Shown piece after piece: positions 9,895 to 45,773 of a stretch of DNA of 64,000 nt. The stretch is from an uncultured delta proteobacterium (GTDB lineage Bacteria > Desulfobacterota > Binatia > UBA9968), in assembly GCA_963767275.1 (NCBI GenBank), contig CAVYDL010000004.1:96421-160420 (forward strand), in the 5' to 3' direction. Within the stretch, counting starts at the first letter, position 1. Every line of letters begins with the position of its first letter. A model generated the notes under the pieces. That model searched no databases. It saw only the letters and a program-made list of their open reading frames with translations, and was not told the origin of the DNA. A program made the position numbers and the translations under genes.

Positions 9895-10174
9895 AGAGCT
9901 CTAGGCGGGTTCCATACGAGGCAAAAAAGCGCCGGGAGTCAATCAAACAATCTTAAATCTTAGGCCGGCCACCAGGACTCGGTGACGAAATCAAGTCGAG
10001 TCGCTTCGCGGTTTTTACTCTTCACCAACAGACTGCTTTCTTTGTGCTGCTGATCTTAGATCCTCCAAGTCCGACTCGCTCTCAGAACTATTGACCAAAT
10101 CGCTAAGGGGGCCGGGTCAAAATTTCGAGTCCCAAGAGCCTATCGCTGTCGATTCGCTTTCACATGTGGGTCTG

Positions 10175-39120: not shown

Positions 39121-39480
39121 TAATGTTAGATGCGATGGATAGATGTTAGGTTGTATCTTTTGATGTTTGCTCAGTGCTGTACGAGTTATGATGGGTTGGA
39201 TATGATGTTCTTAGTTAAAGGGAGTTTTGTATGATTGTAAGTTGAAGACTTGATGTGTTCGGTCGATTTGTTGGGTGTATTTGGTGAGTACAGTGACTCA
39301 GATATTACAACATTGATTGGAGATAGAGCATACTATGTTGGTGAGGATATTTGATTTCACTTTGCGCGTGAAGAACGATTAGAACATTATGTTTGGATTG
39401 AAGCTGATACGTTGCGAAGAAACAAAGCTGGGACGAATGATTTTATTTATGTTGGAATGTTGGGTGAGGGCTTGTGTAGG
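39121..39480 (+). other. Extreme G>C strand-skewed, C-depleted tract with a residual reading frame (possible hypermutated coding relic)
   Basis: Hand count over 360 nt gives G 107, T 132, A 91 and C 30, with no CC dinucleotide. The track has no ORF of 60 aa or more between 38843 and 39576. The frame starting at ATG 39130 is broken only by TGA 39232, TAA 39238, TGA 39352, TAG 39559 and TGA 39574. It then runs on into ORF 39577-39789. Confidence 0.6.
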
Positions 39481-39917
39481 TACTTACTCAAGAACTTTCA
39501 GTTTAGGTTTCGAACTAACACGATGGATTATGGAAGCGGTAGCGTAAAGCTTGAAGCGTAGTTACTTTATATTTGATTGACGCATCGAGACGACGTTGCA
39601 CGACGACTCATGTGTATGTTATGTGGCTCAAAGGAATACGTGTTTAGCGATATATTCAATGTTTTTCTCGCAAGGATCCTCCTACAGCCGGTTAAAAGAC
39701 AAAGCCTTTGCGAGAGTTCTAAAGCAGAGCTTGATGCTCATGAGATCAAATGCAAGGATCATTTGCACATTCTTGGAGCATCTGCATAACAAGTGCTCAT
39801 CTCCACGGCTAACTACGTCTACCGCTACTACTTCCGCCACCTGCAAATGATCTTCTTGAGTTTCGTTCGCTGGCAAGGATGAAAGTTTTTCAGATGTTAT
39901 CGAGCTAATTTTTACGA

Positions 39918-40516
39918 TGAATTACTCCGGTATAACGTGGCCAGATAACCTCTCATTCCCGCTATCAACCAGTTTTTCAGCGTAGATGATCTGCTCTACC
40001 AACTCACTGGCTACTGCATGGAGGACTTTGAAACCAATTTCCATGGTCAAATTCACACGGCAACAAGAATCTCCGAATTTCCACGGATCATTCGCAAGAA
40101 CAGCGAGGTGATTCACCAGCGGGCCATTGAACGCCTGCTTCTTCTCAGATCGACCTCATTCAAACATGCCAATTGGAATTTCTTGGGCGTTGGAAGACTA
40201 TCGGAAAGGTGATTATCAAGATTGCCTGACAAAATGTGGCAGCGCGTTTGAGAGCACGATGAAGGTAATTTGCCAGAGGAAAAGAATTCCTTTTAAGCAA
40301 ACGGATACGGCATCTACCTTATGAAATTATACTCACAAATAGTTCGCTAGAAGCATTTTGGGAGTAACCCTGATATTGATTGCAACCTTGAGGAACAGGC
40401 TCAGTTCATCGCACGGCGCTGGCACTGTACCGAAAGCTGTTCCCGACCATGTTGCCGCCTACGTTATTAATGCAACAGCATCAGCGATCGTATTTTTGGC
40501 AGATGAGTTCGCTTAG
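39918..40516 (+). pseudogene. Abortive-infection (Abi_C-domain) family protein remnant, several frame changes
   Basis: ORF 40127-40324 has ISWALEDYRKGDYQDCLTKCGSAFESTMKVICQRK. A later frame gives LRNRLSSSHGAGTVPKAVPDHVAAYVINATASAIVFLADEFA*. This matches the Abi_C C-terminal pattern (RN..g.aHG........A.y.vn.a.....fL). Confidence 0.4.
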
Positions 40517-40649
40517 CCTATCGCCACATAACAGCGCATGCACGCGCGTCATCGCCTCCGATTCGCTGCGGCAATGGCGCGCGTGAAGCGGGACGTTAAG
40601 CGGCAACTGCCTTGTGCTGAGTTAGCGCGCGTGATAGAGGAGGTAAACC

Positions 40650-41475
40650 ATGATGGGCACCGACGCGGTACTACAGCGATACGCGATGAGTGGAATCCTG
40701 GATCGCGTGATCGCATTTCTCCAGGAGCGCGGCATTGATTGGAGTGCCTGACTTACCAGGATTTCTTTCCCTTCGATCAACTCCACGGGCGCGGAATCGA
40801 AGCTACACGCGAGCATATCGAGCGGGCTGGTATCCATTCGAGCATGCACGTGTTGGACTTAGGGTGCGGGGTCGGCGGTTGCTCGCGTGTCATTGCCGAG
40901 ACATGCGGCTGCCGCGTTACCGCCATTGACCTTACGCCACAGTTGATCGAAGTTGCACGGGACCTGACCCGTCGATGCGGGATGACCGACAGCATCGAAT
41001 TCCGGCAAGCGGACGCCTCGATTTACCATTCGCTGAAGGTACGTTCGATCACGTTTGGTGCCACAACGTCACTATGAACATTGAGGATAAGAGAAAGCTG
41101 GCCTCAGAAGTAGCGCGAGTACTCAAACCCGGCGGTCGCTTCTCCTGCTCCGAGAATGGGCAAGGACCTGGCGGCCCCCTTATCTTTCCCTTGCCTTGGG
41201 CTACCGACGCATCGGCCAGCTTTCTCGTCACGCCAGCGATGATGCGTCAGGCACTCGAGGAGGGTGGCCTGCGGATCAGTGAAGAGATCGACCTCAGCGA
41301 CCCATGGATCGCGTTCCTCAAGGAGATGCGTGCTCGTGCCGAGCGCGGCGATCCACCGCTCAACGCGAATCACGTGATCATGGGTGACGATATTGGCGAG
41401 CGCATCAATAACGCTGGCAGGTGTGCGATGGAAAAACGCGTGGTTGAGCACGTCATCCTGGCGAAGAAACCATGA
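40650..41475 (+). pseudogene. Class I SAM-dependent methyltransferase, two frameshifts
   Basis: The gene is in three frames. MMGTDAVLQRYAMSGILDRVIAFLQERGIDWS is frame 1. LTYQDFFPFDQLHGRGIEATREHIERAGIHSSMHVLDLGCGVGG...RVTAIDLTPQLIEVAR is frame 2, with motif I. DLPFAEGTFDHVWCHNVTMNIEDK...LKPGGRF is frame 3. Confidence 0.65.
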
Positions 41476-41651
41476 GTTACAACGTGGATTGCTCAAGACG
41501 TCTATGGATGGCGCGTGAAAAAGAGTGTGCGAGTGAAACTGCCGCTGCATCACTTTTTGGTGCGGACGGGCATGGATCGCCATGACTTGATTGTCGTCGC
41601 AGTGGCCTCCTCCGCCACAACACACCGTTGCGCGTCTTACGAGGCAGTAGG

Positions 41652-42602
41652 GTGAAAATATTTCTTAGCTGGTCAGGAGACTTGAGCCAGAGCGTAGCCG
41701 CGACGCTTCGAAAGCATTTGCCTCTCATGATCCAAAGCTTGGACGTGTTCATGTCGAAGCATGACATCGAATCGGGTGCGCGCTGGACAAACGAATTAGC
41801 GCAGGAATTGGAGCGGACAAGTTTCGGTATCCTTTGCCTTACGAAGGAGAGCCTTTCTAGCTCTTGGCTTAATTTCGAGGCCGGTGCCTTGGTGAAGCAT
41901 GCCGAGGGACGTGCATGTGGCCTACTACTCGCTGGGTTAGGGTCTGCGGACGTTTCGGGACCACTCACGCAATTTCAGCATCGCCGTTTTCAGCAGGACC
42001 AATTTCTTCACTTGCTAAAAGATATCAACAAGCGGCTCGAATCACCGTTGCCAACTGATTCGTTGGCCGCGGTGCTGGCGAAATGGTGGCCGGACATAGA
42101 AGAAGACTACAACGTAGCCATTCGCTCTTCGGGAGTTTCCCAGCCGGCAACACAGCGGCCAGAAAGAGAAGTGCTGGAGGAACTCGTTCTTCGAGTCCGT
42201 GCACTTGATGGCCAAAAACAAATTGCGGCCACTGCTCCTCAAGTTGAGCCAAGTGATGTATTGAGTAGACCGGTGACTTACGATTCCTTAGCATGGTATA
42301 CGCTTTGGAAATTCCCAGGGCGAGCCATCTCAGAAAGGCTTCAAATTTTACTTCTTAGGGACATCGATCTCCGCAAATACTCCACCATTGAGGACTTGGA
42401 TAAGGTAATCGAACGTGCTCGACCACCTGTGGAGCGGTACGCATCTGAAAACCCGGACTGGTTCCAGTTCGGCACAGACTACATCACGAAGAGTTTAGGG
42501 TTTATCGATCCTGATTTCAGACGAAGACATGGCTTCGCTGCTCGTACCCGAGAGGCATTTGAGAAGTATGGTGGCCTCGTCCTTACACGTGATCACGAGT
42601 GA
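41652..42602 (+). CDS. TIR-domain protein with ~190-aa C-terminal domain of unknown function
   Basis: From GTG 41652: KIFLSWSGDLSQSVAATLRKHLPLMIQSLDVFMSKHDIESGARWTNELAQELERTSFGILCLTKESLSSSWLNFEAGAL. This is the bacterial TIR layout, including the conserved Glu in FEAG. I recognise no family for the remainder. The track ORF starts at TTG 41628. Confidence 0.75.
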   Translation: MKIFLSWSGDLSQSVAATLRKHLPLMIQSLDVFMSKHDIESGARWTNELAQELERTSFGILCLTKESLSSSWLNFEAGALVKHAEGRACGLLLAGLGSADVSGPLTQFQHRRFQQDQFLHLLKDINKRLESPLPTDSLAAVLAKWWPDIEEDYNVAIRSSGVSQPATQRPEREVLEELVLRVRALDGQKQIAATAPQVEPSDVLSRPVTYDSLAWYTLWKFPGRAISERLQILLLRDIDLRKYSTIEDLDKVIERARPPVERYASENPDWFQFGTDYITKSLGFIDPDFRRRHGFAARTREAFEKYGGLVLTRDHE

Positions 42603-42730
42603 AGAGACGCCCAACCATCGGCTTGACCAGATCTTCAGCTCGCTCGCTTTGCTTGCTGGCTTCGTCTGGTCAGCCTGACGCGTTAGACGTTCTCAGTGAT
42701 TCCGACAGGTTTCTCAATGGATATTAGACA

Positions 42731-44070
42731 ATGACCAAGACCGACAAGAGGGGAAATCCGGTTTCGTACGGATCGCAGGCAGCGATCGAGCGTCTGGACC
42801 GAGTATTCGACATGATGCACGCCTATCAGGCCGATCCGCTGGCCGAGGTCGATGTGATCATTGCAGAGCATCCGGACTTTGCGCTGGCCCACGCGTTTCG
42901 CGCCGGTGCACTGGCGACGGCAACCGACAAAGCGTTCGAGCCGGAACTGATCAAGAGTGTGAACGCCGCCGAAGGACTCGCCCGGGAGGCCAACGAACGC
43001 GAGCGCCTGCACATCGCCGCTTGTCGCGCCTGGCTCGACGGCGAATGGGAGCGCGGTATCGAGGCGTGGGGCCGAGCCTCGACCGAGTATCTGCGCGACT
43101 TGCTGGCGCTGCAGTATGCGCATCTCGGAGACTTCTATCTGGGATACTCGCACTTGCTCCGCGATCGCGTTGCGCGCGTGTTGCCGCATTGGAATCGCAG
43201 CGTTTCAGGCTATGGTTTCGTCGAAGGCATGTACGCGTTCGGGCTTGAAGAGGCAGGCGAATACGCAAAGGCTGAACAACGCGGTCGCGAGGCCGTTGCC
43301 ATGAACAGGCAGGATGGGTGGGCAGTGCACGCGGTGACGCACGTGATGGAAATGCAGGGCCGCGCGAACGAGGGCGCAGACTATCTGACTGCGGCTGCCG
43401 ACGGTTGGGCGCCGAACAGCATGTTTGCATTCCATTTGTGGTGGCACAAGGCGTTGTTCCAGATCGAAGCGAACGACATGGTTTCAGCGTTGAAGCTGTT
43501 CGACGAGAACATTCCTGGCGGCGGATTCGTCAGGTGAACGAGCTTGTCGACGGATCGTCCCTACTGTGGCGGCTGTGGCTGCTCGGGCACGATGTTGGCG
43601 ACCGGTGGGCCGACCTCGCAGACAAGTGGGAACCGCGAGTCGATGATGCGTACTATGCTTTCAACGACGTGAACGCGATGATTGCATTTGTCGGCGCGGG
43701 CCGCGCCAACGCACAGCAGCGATTGCTAGCTGCTGCCAAGCGCGCGGCCGCCGGTCAAGGTACGAATGCGATGATGAGCCGCGAGATTGGTGTGCCCGCC
43801 TGCGAAGGTATTGCGGCGTTCGGTCGCGGCGATTATGCGCAGACGATCGAGCGCTTGATGCCTGTGCGCGGCAAGGCTAACCGTATGGGCGGCAGCCATG
43901 CGCAGCGCGACATGCTCTCGTGGACGCTCACCGAAGCGGCGATCCGGCTCGGCGACCGTGCGCTGGCCGACGCGACCGTCGCTGAACGACTGTCATGGAA
44001 GCCGGAGAGCCCGATCAACCGAGCGTGGGCGACCCGCGCCGAGCAACTGAAACGCAAGCAGGCCGTCTAA
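42731..44070 (+). CDS. TTC38-like tetratricopeptide-repeat protein, apparent frameshift near 43525-43540
   Basis: ORF 42731-43537 (...GWAVHAVTHVMEMQGR...FHLWWHKALF...) continues in another frame as ...LVDGSSLLWRLWLLGHDVGDRWADLADKWE... (ORF 43318-44070). Together the two give the length and order of the TTC38 family. Confidence 0.6.
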
Positions 44071-44154
44071 GCCTTCGTTCCAGTGGACTGTCTTCGTCAG
44101 CCACTGAACTCAAACGTTGGGTGCCATATCCGGGGGTCTTCGATTGTGAATGCT

Positions 44155-44547
44155 ATGCGTCTGGTCGAGTGCATTGCCTTTATGCTCATACAAGGCGGTC
44201 AGATCCTCGCTGAGAAGCGCAAGCCCACCAAACGGGTGATGCCTGGAGCCGTTGCTCTGCCTGGCGGGCACATCGAGGCCCGCGAGAGCGCGGAAGAGGC
44301 GCTGTATCGTGAAATGCAGGAGGAAGTCGGGATTGTCCCCATCGAGAGCGCCTACGTTTGTACCCTCCTGCATCGGTCGCAAGAATTCCGGAAGCTCCAC
44401 TATTTCGCCGTGACGCGCTGGGAGGGAGAGATGGTCTCCCAGGAGGCGGAAGCCGTGGTGTGGATTCCGCTCAACGCCTTGGAGACCTTGGACCTTGACG
44501 TCGATAAGATCGCCGTACAAGAATACCTGCGTGTCTACGCATCGTGA
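44155..44547 (+). CDS. NUDIX hydrolase
   Basis: Nudix box GGHIEARESAEEALYREMQEEVGI. ATG 44155 (MRLVECIAFML...) is preferred over the track start 44083. Confidence 0.8.
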   Translation: MRLVECIAFMLIQGGQILAEKRKPTKRVMPGAVALPGGHIEARESAEEALYREMQEEVGIVPIESAYVCTLLHRSQEFRKLHYFAVTRWEGEMVSQEAEAVVWIPLNALETLDLDVDKIAVQEYLRVYAS

Positions 44548-44611
44548 TGATGCGCTGCGGAGTTCTTGCACAGCGTGAGGGGTATGCACAGGGCGCAGAC
44601 GGCGTTAAGTC

Positions 44612-45345
44612 TCAACAGGCAGCACAGAGAGCGATTGCGAGCACATAGTACTTCCTGAAGTCGCCCTGCATCGGAATAGATTCACCAATGATGGCAACCT
44701 CGTAGCCACAGCTTTCCGCCAAGCTGATCAAATCAAGGATGTCTGGATAGTTGGCTTGCACCATAAAGATTTTCCCGCCGGGCCGAAGATGAGTCCGTGC
44801 CTCTGTGAATAACGCTTGATGCGCACGGTATTGCGTGTCCCACTGAGCTGCGGAGGTGTCGTCGTGGGCTGCTTTGTTCCTCCGGGAAGATTCGCTACGA
44901 TGATGTCGAAGGTCTCAGATGGAGTGATGCTCGAGAAAACATGACCCGCCCGAACATCAACCCGATTACCTAATCCGAGGCGCTCGACGTTTCGTTTCGC
45001 ATTTCTCACAGCGGCCGCGGCAATGTCCACTGCGACCACGCTGGCTGCACCCTGCAGAGCGGCCAACAACGCTAATGCTCCTGTTCCTGTACCAACGTCA
45101 AGTACACTCGATCCAGCACTGACATGTAAGTGTTCCGCCAAAAACACTGTGCTTTCGTTCGGTGGAAAGACTCCAGGCAGTACCAATAGCGCCATATCAA
45201 TTAAGCGTACGATTTTCCCCTCAGGGGGAATCGACCTCGATTCGGACTGTTGCTTAATTTGGCGTTGGTCAATCGCTTCCATCTGAGCCTGTGACAGTAC
45301 GTCGATGCTGAGCATTTTGCTTTCTTTTCGCATCATTGGGTACAC
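44612..45345 (-). CDS. Class I methyltransferase (small-domain/PrmC-RsmC-like), apparent frameshift near 44875-44890
   Basis: Motif I VLDVGTGTGALAL, then DIIVANLPG. The sensible continuation lies in another frame that I translated down to the stop at 44612-44614: AAHDDTSAAQWDTQYRAHQALFTEARTHLRPGGKIFMVQANYPDILDLISLAESCGYEVAI... Confidence 0.65.
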
Positions 45346-45360
45346 GTGGACAGCATTGAA

Positions 45361-45767
45361 TTAATGCCTTTGCCGGCCTTGGACTAAACCGTCGACATAC
45401 AAGATCGCTTCGTCGACGCACATCTGAAAGCGCCGTGTCATCGCGGCATCGGCGCGTTGTTGGAGTTTCGCGGCGTGAAGAATCTCGAGCATCTGCGGTG
45501 TGGCAAACGCTACTGGCCCGTCCAGCGCCTGTTGCCATGCTTCTTCCGCCGCTTCGTGGAGCACTTCGATGATGAAAGCGGATGACTGCTCTTCGCGGCG
45601 TTCCCAGGCGACTTTACCTAGAAAGGCGCGTCCTCCGGAACCTTTTCACCCTGAAGGCCTGGATTAACGCCGGCAAAAGCTCCTGTTCCCTCTCAAGTAA
45701 AATCAACGCCGACTCTTCGTCTCCCGCGCGAAAGTTAGTCTCGATGATATCTTTTTTCGCGTTCCAT
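45361..45767 (-). pseudogene. Small hypothetical protein, frame-disrupted
   Basis: ATG 45767 lies 6 nt after the isochorismatase stop. Pieces are spread over at least 3 frames: MEREKKDIIETNFRAGDEESALILLEREQELLPALIQAF, then ..GKVAWERREEQSSAFIIEVLHEAAEEAWQQALDG... No family recognised. Confidence 0.3.
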
Positions 45768-45773
45768 GTATAT

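What the first reader, a model, noticed from the sequence alone, without database searches (positions are those of the whole stretch)
39121..39480. Extreme strand-specific cytosine depletion over a residual reading frame: a possible C>T hypermutated gene relic
**Composition.** My hand count over 360 nt gives G 107 (30%), T 132 (37%), A 91 (25%) and C 30 (8%), so (G-C)/(G+C) is about 0.56, and there is no CC dinucleotide. The adjacent 60-nt lines carry 15-25% C. G is at the level expected for this high-GC backbone, C has collapsed, and T is inflated by about the same amount. That is what conversion of most +strand C to T in native-like DNA would produce. Imported AT-rich DNA would be low in both G and C.

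**Reading frame.** The frame from ATG 39130 is interrupted only by TGA 39232, TAA 39238, TGA 39352, TAG 39559 and TGA 39574. It then continues in phase into ORF 39577-39789. With this composition I expect about one stop per 13 codons, or about 11 in the first 144 codons. I see 4 there, and an alternative frame that I translated has about 13.

**Mutation signature.** Every interrupting stop is one C>T step from CGA, CAA or CAG. The conceptual product has no Pro and is rich in V/I/M/F/L/Y/C/W, the residues generated when coding-strand C becomes T.

**Interpretation.** I know of no described bacterial locus with this signature. Candidate causes are a ssDNA cytidine deaminase (toxin or defence) acting on an exposed strand, extreme transcription-associated deamination, or a sequencing or chimera artefact.
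Basis: partly seen in the sequence, partly recalled or inferred. Interest (0 to 1): 0.75.

Follow-up and report, generated by a model that had tools for sequence, protein, structure and literature searches.

The report
Cytosine-stripped gene relic, one strand only
This 0.5-kb stretch is the wreck of a small secreted-protein gene in a decayed defence islet that, compared with a near-identical relative, has lost two-thirds of its + strand cytosines in a gradient fading over about 2 kb. That is either a rare natural burst of single-strand cytosine damage or a long-read sequencing artefact, and only the raw reads can tell.

Summary
The composition claim is exact: 39121-39480 has A91 C30 G107 T132, no CC, and GC skew 0.56, the most extreme 360-nt window in 64 kb.

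An orthologous copy of the locus (L009, a metagenome contig) explains the tract. It is homologous to a 656-nt stretch of normal composition (24% C) that encodes a signal-peptide protein of about 186 aa.

The window copy is 156 nt shorter and keeps only 32% of the ortholog's C, against 70% of G, 82% of A and 86% of T. C is lost as much by deletion as by C>T.

The damage starts sharply at about 39113 and decays exponentially rightward (length constant about 0.5 kb), through an AbiJ-like pseudogene into a methyltransferase gene. In 39939-41100, 27 of 33 differences fall on + strand C. Outgroups show the changes arose in the window's lineage. The native flanks show no such signature.

So the relic and the strand-specific cytosine process are real in this sequence.

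Best reading: a kataegis-like burst on exposed + strand DNA, fixed by uracil or abasic-site bypass (confidence about 0.45). Main rival: a local long-read consensus artefact (about 0.35).

The parts
39118..39617 (+). Hypermutated core, which contains the reported tract 39121-39480. These 500 nt are homologous to 656 nt of L009 (1256-1911).
   Evidence: ancestral C kept 0.32 (82 deleted, 19 to T, 6 to A/G), G 0.70, A 0.82, T 0.86, with a single inserted base; window composition A132 C54 G139 T175. L009 composition A152 C159 G188 T161. C versus non-C, Fisher p = 9e-27.
39130..39561 (+). Relic of a gene for a small secreted protein of unknown family. In L009 the ortholog starts with the signal peptide MAWQRLVLLLLMVLATQVAARA and is about 186 aa after stitching 3 frameshifts.
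   Evidence: L009 translation; window frame-0 translation against the L009 conceptual protein, E = 8e-8; no Pfam or NCBIfam hit; against PDB sequences only two marginal chance-level matches (best E = 0.004); the window translation finds no homologue.
38993..39117 (+). Upstream region conserved with L009, ending at the sharp onset of hypermutation. It holds GTATATT (38993) and AATATAC (39110). L009 has three AATATAC(T) copies here, one of them in a 7-bp palindrome.
   Evidence: No sigma-70 consensus promoter was found on the + strand. A role as promoter or nick site is inference only.
39640..40516 (+). AbiJ-like abortive-infection pseudogene (AbiJ_NTD4 + Abi_C/DUF7014) with frameshifts and stops.
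   Evidence: DUF7014 1.3e-12 and Abi_C; intact 300-aa homologues, P0001 at 83% identity; alignments.
39618..39938 (+). Shoulder of the gradient, over the 5' third of abiJ. Changes are dense, led by C>T and C deletion.
   Evidence: C kept 0.71-0.76; 39618-39895, 13 C>T, 10 C deleted, 1 C>A of 81 C; over the whole abiJ cassette (39618-40540), polarised with the contig L001, 98 window-specific changes against 9 L009-specific.
39939..41100 (+). Tail of the gradient, where almost only + strand C is affected. It includes the 3' part of abiJ and a class-I methyltransferase gene (40538 to about 41300) that is fragmented here but intact (242 aa) in L009.
   Evidence: 27 of 322 C changed (11 to T, 11 deleted, 5 to A/G), against 2 of 302 G, 3 of 285 A and 1 of 260 T. 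C versus G p = 1.3e-6. for the methyltransferase.
38385..38880 (+). DinB-family relic left of the core. It carries extra single-C deletions relative to L009, so the ORF 38446-38820 is partly out-of-frame text.
   Evidence: in 38501-39117, C kept 0.80 (18 deleted), others 0.88-0.94.
37942..45469 (.). A 7.5-kb islet of decayed or accessory defence-type genes (DinB relic, secreted-gene relic, AbiJ-like, methyltransferases, TIR, TPR). It is absent from four otherwise closely related contigs (92-99.9% identical in the flanks).
   Evidence: L010 is 99.1-99.6% identical in both native flanks and has 118 unrelated nt in place of the islet. L009 carries the islet.

Best explanation
**What it is.** The tract is the remains of a small secreted-protein gene lying just upstream of an AbiJ-like gene in a 7.5-kb accessory islet.

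**What happened (shown).** In this lineage only, and recently, the + strand cytosines of a roughly 2-kb zone were hit by a localised mutational burst. The rest of the islet is still 99-100% identical to the relative. The burst has a sharp left edge at about 39113. The hit frequency is about 0.8-0.96 per C at the edge and decays exponentially rightward, with a length constant of about 0.5 kb.

**How it most likely works (inferred).**
1. The + strand was repeatedly or persistently single-stranded from a fixed point rightward. Candidate causes are the non-template strand of an R-loop or transcription bubble from a promoter just upstream of the relic gene, or the strand exposed by a site-specific nick followed by gap or flap formation.
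2. Its cytosines were deaminated or otherwise damaged, spontaneously or by an ssDNA cytidine deaminase.
3. The resulting uracils and abasic sites were copied by bypass synthesis. This fixed C>T, some C>A/G and many one-base deletions, with collateral small deletions where lesions were dense.
4. All the genes involved were dispensable, so nothing was purged.

The outcome is the bacterial counterpart of kataegis, somatic hypermutation or APOBEC-type hypermutation.
For: - **An orthologous locus exists.** L009 has the same gene order, and its version of the tract has normal composition.
- **The loss is base- and strand-specific.** In the core, C kept 0.32 against G 0.70, A 0.82 and T 0.86. In 39939-41100, 27 of 33 differences are at C. 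The asymmetry survives a different aligner: with MAFFT, C>T to T>C is 43:6 while G>A to A>G is 20:20.
- **The direction is known.** In abiJ, L009 agrees with the independent contigs L001 and L005, giving 98 window-specific changes against 9 L009-specific. L009 keeps the DinB frame of the intact protein P0122 where the window has C deletions. The methyltransferase is intact in L009 and broken here.
- **The shape is a clean saw-tooth.** The fraction of C changed fits 0.96*exp(-x/507 nt) + 0.026 from 39113.
- **There is a context preference.** C>T favours 5'-CC (odds ratio 3.6-4.6, p < 4e-4). YC contexts and C runs are hit about twice as often as RC contexts and isolated C.
- **The signature is local.** About 20 kb of native flank compared with L010 shows balanced SNPs, almost no indels and no C bias.
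- **The burst is recent.** Many 150-nt bins to the right are 100% identical to L009.
- **The spectrum fits.** The triad of C>T, C>A/G and one-base deletion at C is what uracil or abasic-site bypass is expected to give (established knowledge, not tested here).
Against: - There is no independent sequence of the mutated version. Its ORF product P0121 is unique among about 15 billion proteins.
- The related contigs are named 'contig_N', which is Flye style, so this family of assemblies is probably long-read metagenomic. The window carries another likely indel in a housekeeping gene, a split Topo VI B.
- Deletions outnumber substitutions in the core, and G, A and T are also affected there. Known deaminase clusters do not look like this.
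- No deaminase domain or motif lies in the 64 kb.
- No consensus promoter or known nick site lies at the onset.
- The ancestral tract had only weak GC skew (0.08), so there was no pre-existing tendency to form R-loops.
- Hitting 80% of C in a burst demands very long or repeated ssDNA exposure.
Confidence: 0.45

Rival explanations
1. Technical artefact. The real DNA is L009-like, and the consensus over about 38.2-41.1 kb rests on one or a few poor long reads of a single orientation, or on a physically damaged or modified template strand. The base-caller then dropped or miscalled one base type.
For: - Relatives come from assemblies with Flye-style contig names.
- L009's own contig end is visibly noisy.
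- The islet is strain-variable, so its coverage may be low.
- Deletions vastly outnumber insertions (157:1 in the core).
- Nanopore reads have strand-specific, modification-induced errors and a G>A/A>G substitution bias on the read strand (PMC11610603; bioRxiv 10.64898/2026.01.14.699587). For minus-strand reads this would appear as + strand C>T and T>C, which are the two commonest transitions here (20 and 8).
- The mutated ORF is unique to this contig.
- Topo VI B is split by a frameshift elsewhere in the window.
Against: - The specificity for C is at least 10-fold in the tail (8.4% of C against 0.7% of other bases). Generic read noise is not that base-specific.
- Error levels of 60-80% per C are far above raw-read error.
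- The exponential decay from a fixed point over 2 kb has no obvious technical cause.
- The right half of the same islet and 20 kb of flanks are clean.
- C>T occurs inside C runs (CCCCCC to CCTCCT) rather than as simple run shortening.
- Described methylation artefacts are confined to motifs, not regions.
Confidence: 0.35
2. In vivo, but through synthesis errors rather than template damage. The + strand right of about 39113 was repeatedly resynthesised from a fixed nick by a low-fidelity polymerase under dCTP shortage. Such a shortage could follow activity of a dCTP-deaminase-type defence. T was misinserted for C, and template G was skipped.
For: - The zone has a fixed origin and exponential tract-length decay.
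- Losses favour consecutive C.
- Other bases are also altered near the origin.
- The changes are C>T plus one-base deletion at C, as expected from dNTP-pool imbalance (established knowledge).
Against: - Even error-prone polymerases err at 1e-2 or less per base, so reaching 80% of C would need hundreds of passes.
- No nickase, Rep or error-prone polymerase gene lies nearby. The DinB-family fragment here is not DNA polymerase IV.
- A genome-wide dCTP shortage should also mark the flanks, and it does not.
Confidence: 0.08
3. Ordinary evolution. This would be an old, freely decaying pseudogene, or a recombinant patch from a divergent allele, whose composition happens to be skewed. Alternatively it is imported AT-rich DNA.
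For: - The region is made of pseudogenes in an accessory islet.
- Bacterial pseudogenes decay with a deletion bias (established knowledge).
- The + strand has the positive GC skew of a leading strand across the window.
Against: - Neighbouring islet DNA is 99-100% identical to L009, so there has been no time for neutral decay.
- A divergent functional allele would not carry dozens of frameshifts.
- The changes are C-specific and on one strand, at 7:1 C>T to T>C.
- Replication skew in the flanks is about 0.05, not 0.56.
- The homologous L009 tract has normal composition.
Confidence: 0.05
4. A functional G/U-rich non-coding RNA, such as a protein sponge, a type III antitoxin or a reverse-transcriptase template, placed upstream of the AbiJ-like gene.
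For: - The tract lies upstream of a defence gene and has no long ORF.
- It contains many GGA and UGGAU strings.
Against: - No Rfam match even at E = 10.
- The fold is no better than shuffles (z = -0.06).
- GGA is not enriched (11 against 10.2 expected).
- There are no internal repeats.
- AbiJ-like genes elsewhere have unrelated upstream DNA.
- The ortholog of the tract is a protein-coding sequence of normal composition.
Confidence: 0.02

Closest known systems
Kataegis: AID/APOBEC-induced strand-coordinated mutation showers on ssDNA (Taylor et al. 2013, PMC3628087; Lada et al. 2012, PMC3542020)
   Same: - Kilobase-scale cluster.
- All hits on cytosines of one strand.
- A preference in the 5' neighbour.
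- Some C>G/A alongside C>T.
- Occurs as a burst against an unmutated background.
   Different: - Described in yeast and human cells, and in E. coli only with a transgenic deaminase.
- Hits are normally spaced tens to hundreds of nt apart, whereas here up to 80% of C are hit.
- Indels are rare in kataegis and about equal to C>T here.
- No deaminase has been identified here.
Somatic hypermutation of immunoglobulin genes by AID (textbook knowledge)
   Same: - Sharp 5' boundary near the start of a transcription unit.
- Exponential decay over 1-2 kb downstream.
- Second-phase mutations at non-C bases through error-prone repair.
   Different: - A vertebrate programmed process that ends up hitting both strands.
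- Here no promoter has been demonstrated, only one strand is affected, and deletions dominate.
APOBEC3G hypermutation gradients in HIV-1 cDNA (textbook knowledge)
   Same: - 5'-CC preference.
- Up to half or more of target sites edited.
- Saw-tooth gradients set by how long the strand stays single-stranded next to a priming site.
   Different: - Acts on retroviral minus-strand cDNA.
- Gives pure transitions without deletions.
- There is no reverse-transcribed intermediate here.
Transcription- and replication-associated cytosine deamination in E. coli, affecting the non-transcribed strand and the lagging-strand template (Beletskii & Bhagwat 1996; Bhagwat et al. 2016; from memory)
   Same: - C>T on the strand that is transiently single-stranded.
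- The + strand here is both the coding strand of all the islet genes in the affected zone and, from the GC skew, the lagging-strand template.
   Different: - Those effects are a few-fold and spread genome-wide.
- Here the excess is more than 100-fold, local and burst-like.
Strand-specific base-calling errors in nanopore data caused by DNA modification (PMC11610603; bioRxiv 10.64898/2026.01.14.699587)
   Same: - Errors confined to one strand.
- Transition-type miscalls.
- Can survive into consensus sequences.
   Different: - Restricted to methylation motifs.
- Occur at single positions at modest frequency.
- Not a 2-kb exponential gradient removing most C.
Interbacterial deaminase toxins DddA and SsdA mutagenising survivors (de Moraes et al. 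2021; from memory)
   Same: - A bacterial source of C>T mutagenesis by a DNA deaminase.
   Different: - Their mutations are scattered genome-wide, with DddA at 5'-TC on both strands.
- The native flanks here carry no such signature.

Membership tests
Deaminase-type clustered hypermutation (kataegis / SHM / APOBEC-like) | Clustered changes confined to cytosines of one strand | tested here: met
   C versus G Fisher p = 9e-13 in the core and 1.3e-6 in the tail. In the tail, 27 of 33 changes are at C.
Deaminase-type clustered hypermutation (kataegis / SHM / APOBEC-like) | Changes derived in the affected lineage, against an otherwise unmutated background | tested here: met
   98 window-specific against 9 L009-specific changes, polarised with L001 and L005; clean right half of the islet and clean native flanks.
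Deaminase-type clustered hypermutation (kataegis / SHM / APOBEC-like) | Sequence-context preference at the 5' neighbour of the target C | tested here: met
   C>T at 5'-CC in 22 of 135 sites against 22 of 433 elsewhere (odds ratio 3.6, p = 7e-5). In the reliably aligned zone the odds ratio is 4.6 (p = 3e-4). Positions inside C runs are partly ambiguous in the alignment.
Deaminase-type clustered hypermutation (kataegis / SHM / APOBEC-like) | Spectrum dominated by C>T (with or without C>G) substitutions and few indels | tested here: not met
   C deletions equal C>T in the reliable zones (21 against 24) and exceed it in the core (82 against 19). The tract is 156 nt shorter than its ortholog.
Deaminase-type clustered hypermutation (kataegis / SHM / APOBEC-like) | A DNA cytidine deaminase available in the cell | not testable with these tools
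   None lies in the 64-kb window (Pfam scans, covering the islet and neighbouring ORFs only; motif scan of all six frames).
Transcription-coupled or R-loop-coupled mutagenesis | Onset at a promoter or TSS, with the affected strand being the non-template strand | tested here: inconclusive
   The onset at about 39113 lies about 20 nt upstream of the ancestral start codon, and the affected strand is the coding strand of all downstream genes in the zone. No consensus promoter was found, and there are no expression data.
Interbacterial deaminase-toxin mutagenesis (DddA/SsdA) | Genome-wide scattered C:G>T:A changes | tested here: not met
   in the 11 kb of left native flank compared with L010, only 4 C>T in 3070 C; across both flanks (about 20 kb) transitions are balanced.
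Diversity-generating retroelement | Adenine-specific changes between a template repeat and a variable repeat, with a reverse transcriptase nearby | tested here: not met
   The changes are at C, not A. There is no paralogous copy in the window and no RT domain in the scanned ORFs.
Repeat-induced point mutation (RIP)-like | A duplicated sequence as trigger, with C>T on both strands | tested here: not met
   There is no second copy, even in a C/T-collapsed alphabet, and only one strand is affected.
Structured RNA family (Rfam) | Match to a covariance model, or a fold better than shuffles | tested here: not met
AbiJ-like abortive-infection proteins (neighbouring gene 39640-40516) | AbiJ_NTD4 plus Abi_C/DUF7014 domains in one intact ORF of about 300 aa | tested here: not met
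   The domains are present, but the reading frame is broken by about 15 deletions and several stops. It is a pseudogene of the family.

The most novel reading that the evidence does not exclude
A natural, locus-anchored, strand-specific cytosine hypermutation process in a bacterium. An ssDNA cytidine deaminase, or an equivalent cytosine-damaging activity, would act on the displaced + strand from a fixed start point next to the AATATAC motifs, which could mark a promoter/R-loop or a nick site. The lesions would then be processed by uracil excision and bypass synthesis into C>T changes and one-base deletions. This would be a prokaryotic analogue of somatic hypermutation or kataegis, caught in a defence islet.
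Probability: 0.2. Interest if true: 0.88.

Novelty: new variant of a known kind. Interest (0 to 1): 0.6.

Why it matters
**If the sequence is real.** To my knowledge it would be the first natural bacterial example of a kilobase-scale, strand-coordinated cytosine hypermutation cluster with a defined origin and decay length.
- It would show that bacterial chromosomes can undergo kataegis-like or SHM-like bursts.
- It would give a concrete locus at which to look for the responsible deaminase or lesion, the source of ssDNA and the bypass polymerase.
- It would warn that extreme local skew can arise in one step rather than over evolutionary time.

**If it is an artefact.** It documents a striking base- and strand-specific failure mode of long-read metagenome consensus. 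That failure manufactures pseudogenes and orphan ORFs in public databases.

Either outcome can be tested directly from the raw reads.

Tried and rejected
**Explanations tested and dropped**
- *Structured RNA.* Rfam found nothing at gathering threshold or at E = 10; there are no tRNAs; the fold z-score is -0.06.
- *CsrA-type sponge.* GGA is not enriched, and only a few k-mers are mildly over-represented.
- *Internal or tandem repeats.* None of note.
- *Paralogous source copy in the window (RIP- or DGR-like).* None found, even after collapsing C and T.
- *Native gene plus C>T only.* A collapsed-codon model trained on native genes scores the best frame at -26. Simulated native genes with 70% C>T score +36 +/- 11. 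The best of six frames is not significant (P = 0.15).
- *Tract as part of the abiJ cassette.* Cassette homology starts at 39617. The upstream DNA of L001, L002 and L005 is unrelated, and an apparent L001 similarity is not significant (P = 0.11).
- *Conserved partner gene upstream of abiJ in distant homologues.* None.

**Homology searches on the window's own translation**
- Pfam on all six frames hit only the downstream abiJ.
- The 5.8-billion-protein word search found nothing.
- Full HMMER of the 68-aa stop-free segment against 1.84 billion representatives gave one chance hit to a repeat protein.
- tblastn against plasmids found nothing.
- blastn against plasmids and phages found nothing.

**Other dead ends**
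- The family of the ancestral gene is unidentified: no Pfam or NCBIfam hit and only chance-level PDB sequence matches for the L009 conceptual protein.
- No cytidine-deaminase domain or zinc motif is present in the window.
- L008 was of no use for polarising the methyltransferase zone, because it shares only 271 nt.
- Exact-protein look-ups for three window ORFs returned nothing.
Full report
Region 39121-39480 contains A 91, C 30, G 107 and T 132, has no CC, and has a GC skew of 0.562. Across all 360-nt windows of the 64 kb, skew averages 0.046 (sd 0.075), and the 15 most extreme windows all overlap this tract. The frame from 39130 has 4 stops in 148 codons, against 8 and 18 in the other + frames. 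Dinucleotide-preserving shuffles give P = 0.017 for the best of three frames (0.03 for the core), and there is no codon-position periodicity (p = 0.40). So the composition anomaly is strong, while the within-sequence evidence for coding is weak. The argument that every stop is one C>T step from CGA, CAA or CAG is true of any stop codon and carries no weight.

**2. What the tract is not.**
- *Not a known structured RNA.* Rfam finds nothing, the fold is no better than shuffles (z = -0.06), GGA motifs are not enriched, and there are no repeats.
- *Not a copy of anything else in the window*, even with C and T merged.
- *No detectable homologue.* The translation finds nothing in Pfam, the 5.8-billion-protein collection, plasmids or phages. 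A full HMMER scan of 1.84 billion representatives returned one chance match to a repeat protein.
- *Not a native gene altered by C>T alone.* A codon model trained on native genes, blind to C/T, scores the frame at -26. Simulated native genes with 70% C>T score +36 +/- 11.

**3. Surroundings.**
- *Downstream.* Region 39640-40516 is a pseudogene of the AbiJ-like abortive-infection family (AbiJ_NTD4 + Abi_C/DUF7014). Intact relatives are 300 aa, and P0001 is 83% identical. Cassette homology begins at 39617, and other abiJ copies have unrelated upstream DNA, so the tract is not part of that cassette.
- *Upstream.* The ORF 38446-38820 is a scrambled fragment of a DinB-family gene.
- *The islet.* The whole block 37942-45469 is a 7.5-kb islet: DinB relic, the tract, abiJ, a methyltransferase, TIR, TPR and a second methyltransferase. 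It is absent from four otherwise closely related contigs. One of them is the 1.75-Mb contig L010, which is 99.1-99.6% identical in both flanks.

**4. The key comparison.** A homologue of the DinB fragment led to L009, an 8.2-kb metagenome contig that carries the same islet in the same order.
- Right of about 41.1 kb, the window and L009 are 98-100% identical.
- Opposite the tract, L009 has 656 nt of ordinary composition (A152 C159 G188 T161, measured over 660 nt). It begins with a signal peptide, MAWQRLVLLLLMVLATQVAARA, and reads through to about 186 codons after three frameshifts are stitched.
- The window's frame-0 translation aligns to this conceptual protein over nearly its whole length (30% identity, E = 8e-8).
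ATG 39130 itself is a by-product of a lost C; the ancestral ATG aligns near 39135.
- The ancestral protein belongs to no known family.

**5. What happened to it.** I aligned the window to L009 allowing cheap gaps and tabulated the fate of each L009 base.
- *Core, 39118-39617.* C kept 0.32 (82 deleted, 19 to T, 6 to A/G); G kept 0.70; A kept 0.82; T kept 0.86. One base is inserted, and the tract is 156 nt shorter.
- *MAFFT check.* MAFFT prefers fewer, longer gaps, and the asymmetry persists: C>T to T>C is 43:6 while G>A to A>G is 20:20.
- *Further right,* the alignment is unambiguous and the signature is cleaner. In 39939-41100, 27 of 322 C are changed (11 to T, 11 deleted, 5 to A/G), against 2 of 302 G, 3 of 285 A and 1 of 260 T.
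- *Shape.* The fraction of C altered fits 0.96*exp(-x/507 nt) + 0.026, with x measured rightward from 39113. The left edge is abrupt, immediately after a conserved AATATACT motif.
- *Left of the edge,* C is still lost about twice as often as other bases, mostly by deletion. L009's own noisy contig end blurs that region.
- *Context.* C>T prefers 5'-CC (odds ratio 3.6-4.6, p < 4e-4). C runs and YC contexts are hit about twice as often as isolated C and RC contexts.

**6. Direction and locality.**
- In abiJ, the independent contigs L001 (Iowa soil) and L005 (a SPAdes-named MAG contig) agree with L009. That gives 98 window-specific changes (20 C>T, 20 C deleted, 6 C>A/G) against 9 L009-specific ones.
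- L009 keeps the DinB reading frame of the intact protein P0122 where the window has C deletions.
- The methyltransferase is intact in L009 and fragmented here.
- About 20 kb of native flank compared with L010 shows balanced transitions, many spaced in multiples of three. It shows almost no indels and no C bias.
- The process is therefore derived in this lineage, local, confined to one strand and recent.

**7. Interpretation.** A cytosine-specific, single-strand-specific process with a fixed origin and exponential reach points to exposure of the + strand as ssDNA from about 39113 rightward. Its products are C>T, C>A/G and one-base deletions.
- *Preferred reading.* Cytosines on the exposed strand were deaminated or damaged, and the resulting uracil or abasic sites were bypassed. 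This would be a bacterial counterpart of kataegis, SHM or APOBEC-type hypermutation (PMC3628087, PMC3542020).
- *Source of the ssDNA (inferred only).* One option is an R-loop or transcription bubble. The onset lies about 20 nt before the ancestral start codon, and the affected strand is the non-template strand of all downstream genes in the zone. The other option is a nick-initiated gap or flap at the AATATAC motifs.
- *Against this reading.* No promoter consensus, nickase or deaminase was found in the window. The abundance of deletions and the collateral damage to G, A and T are atypical of known deaminase clusters.

**8. The main rival is technical.**
- *For it.* L009 and L010 carry Flye-style names. 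The islet is strain-variable. Deletions outnumber insertions 157:1. The mutated ORF is unique among about 15 billion proteins. The window has another suspicious frameshift, in Topo VI B. Nanopore reads are known to make strand-specific, transition-type errors (PMC11610603; bioRxiv 10.64898/2026.01.14.699587).
- *Against it.* The specificity for one base is at least 10-fold. Up to 80% of C are hit. The decay is smooth over 2 kb. The rest of the islet and the flanks are clean.
- *Estimates.* About 0.45 for in vivo template damage, 0.08 for in vivo low-fidelity resynthesis under dCTP shortage, 0.35 for artefact, and the remainder for ordinary decay or an RNA element.

**9. Verdict.**
The gene relic and the strand-specific cytosine process stand. 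"C>T conversion of native-like DNA" is only half the story, because deletion of C is at least as important and the DNA belongs to an accessory islet.
- If real, this would be a new bacterial variant of deaminase-type clustered hypermutation, and very surprising.
- The decisive test is inspection of the raw reads, which are outside these tools.

Noticed in passing
window 37942-45469: A 7.5-kb accessory islet is absent from L010-L013, where 118 unrelated nt take its place. It holds a DinB relic, a secreted-gene relic, an AbiJ-like pseudogene, a class-I methyltransferase, a TIR protein (41628-42602), a TPR protein and a PrmA-like methyltransferase (44728-45345, minus strand). No integrase or recombinase was seen.
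   Followed up: partly
window 42731-44070: The TPR-like gene is truncated here to 268 aa (42731-43537). Twenty-odd cluster mates at 90% identity or more are 446 aa. The overlapping ORF 43318-44070 looks like the frameshifted remainder.
   Followed up: no
window 57823-59872 (minus strand): The DNA topoisomerase VI subunit B gene is split into two ORFs, 58640-59872 and 57823-58608, by a frameshift near 58610-58640, next to an intact subunit A gene (56742-57848). It is either a real split or an indel error, which bears on assembly quality.
   Followed up: partly
window 38993-39117; L009 1128-1270: The motif AATATAC(T) occurs three times in L009, the first copy as a perfect 7-bp palindrome, GTATATT-GCAGT-AATATAC. 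Hypermutation in the window starts immediately after the copy at 39110-39117. It could be an operator, a promoter element or a nick site.
   Followed up: partly
window 38890-38975: Two mutually exclusive hairpins are conserved in L009: TGAAACAGAATTGC/GCGATTCTGTTTCA, and TTCTGTTTCACGCGGA/TCTGCGGGAAACAGAA. They lie just after the DinB relic and resemble a terminator/antiterminator pair.
   Followed up: no
window 31497-32388: Against L010, about 20 SNPs are spaced mostly in multiples of three, inside the Rieske-oxygenase genes. This is ordinary synonymous strain variation and served as the contrast to the C-specific zone.
   Followed up: partly
window 45470-45770: The first 300 nt right of the islet junction are far more diverged from L010 (dozens of mixed substitutions) than the following 9 kb, which are about 99.5% identical. 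This may be a junction scar or a recombination patch.
   Followed up: no
L009 1-40 and 2572-2832; window 41628-42602: L009 has defects of its own. Its contig start is noisy where the window and L010 agree. A 4-nt deletion splits its abiJ. Its TIR ORF is 136 aa, against 324 aa intact in the window. Neither assembly is error-free or decay-free.
   Followed up: partly
window 8000-10000 and 61000-64000: Two further low-GC stretches (0.43-0.50 against about 0.57) contain ORFs without Pfam matches, for example 8971-9894. They may be other accessory segments.
   Followed up: no
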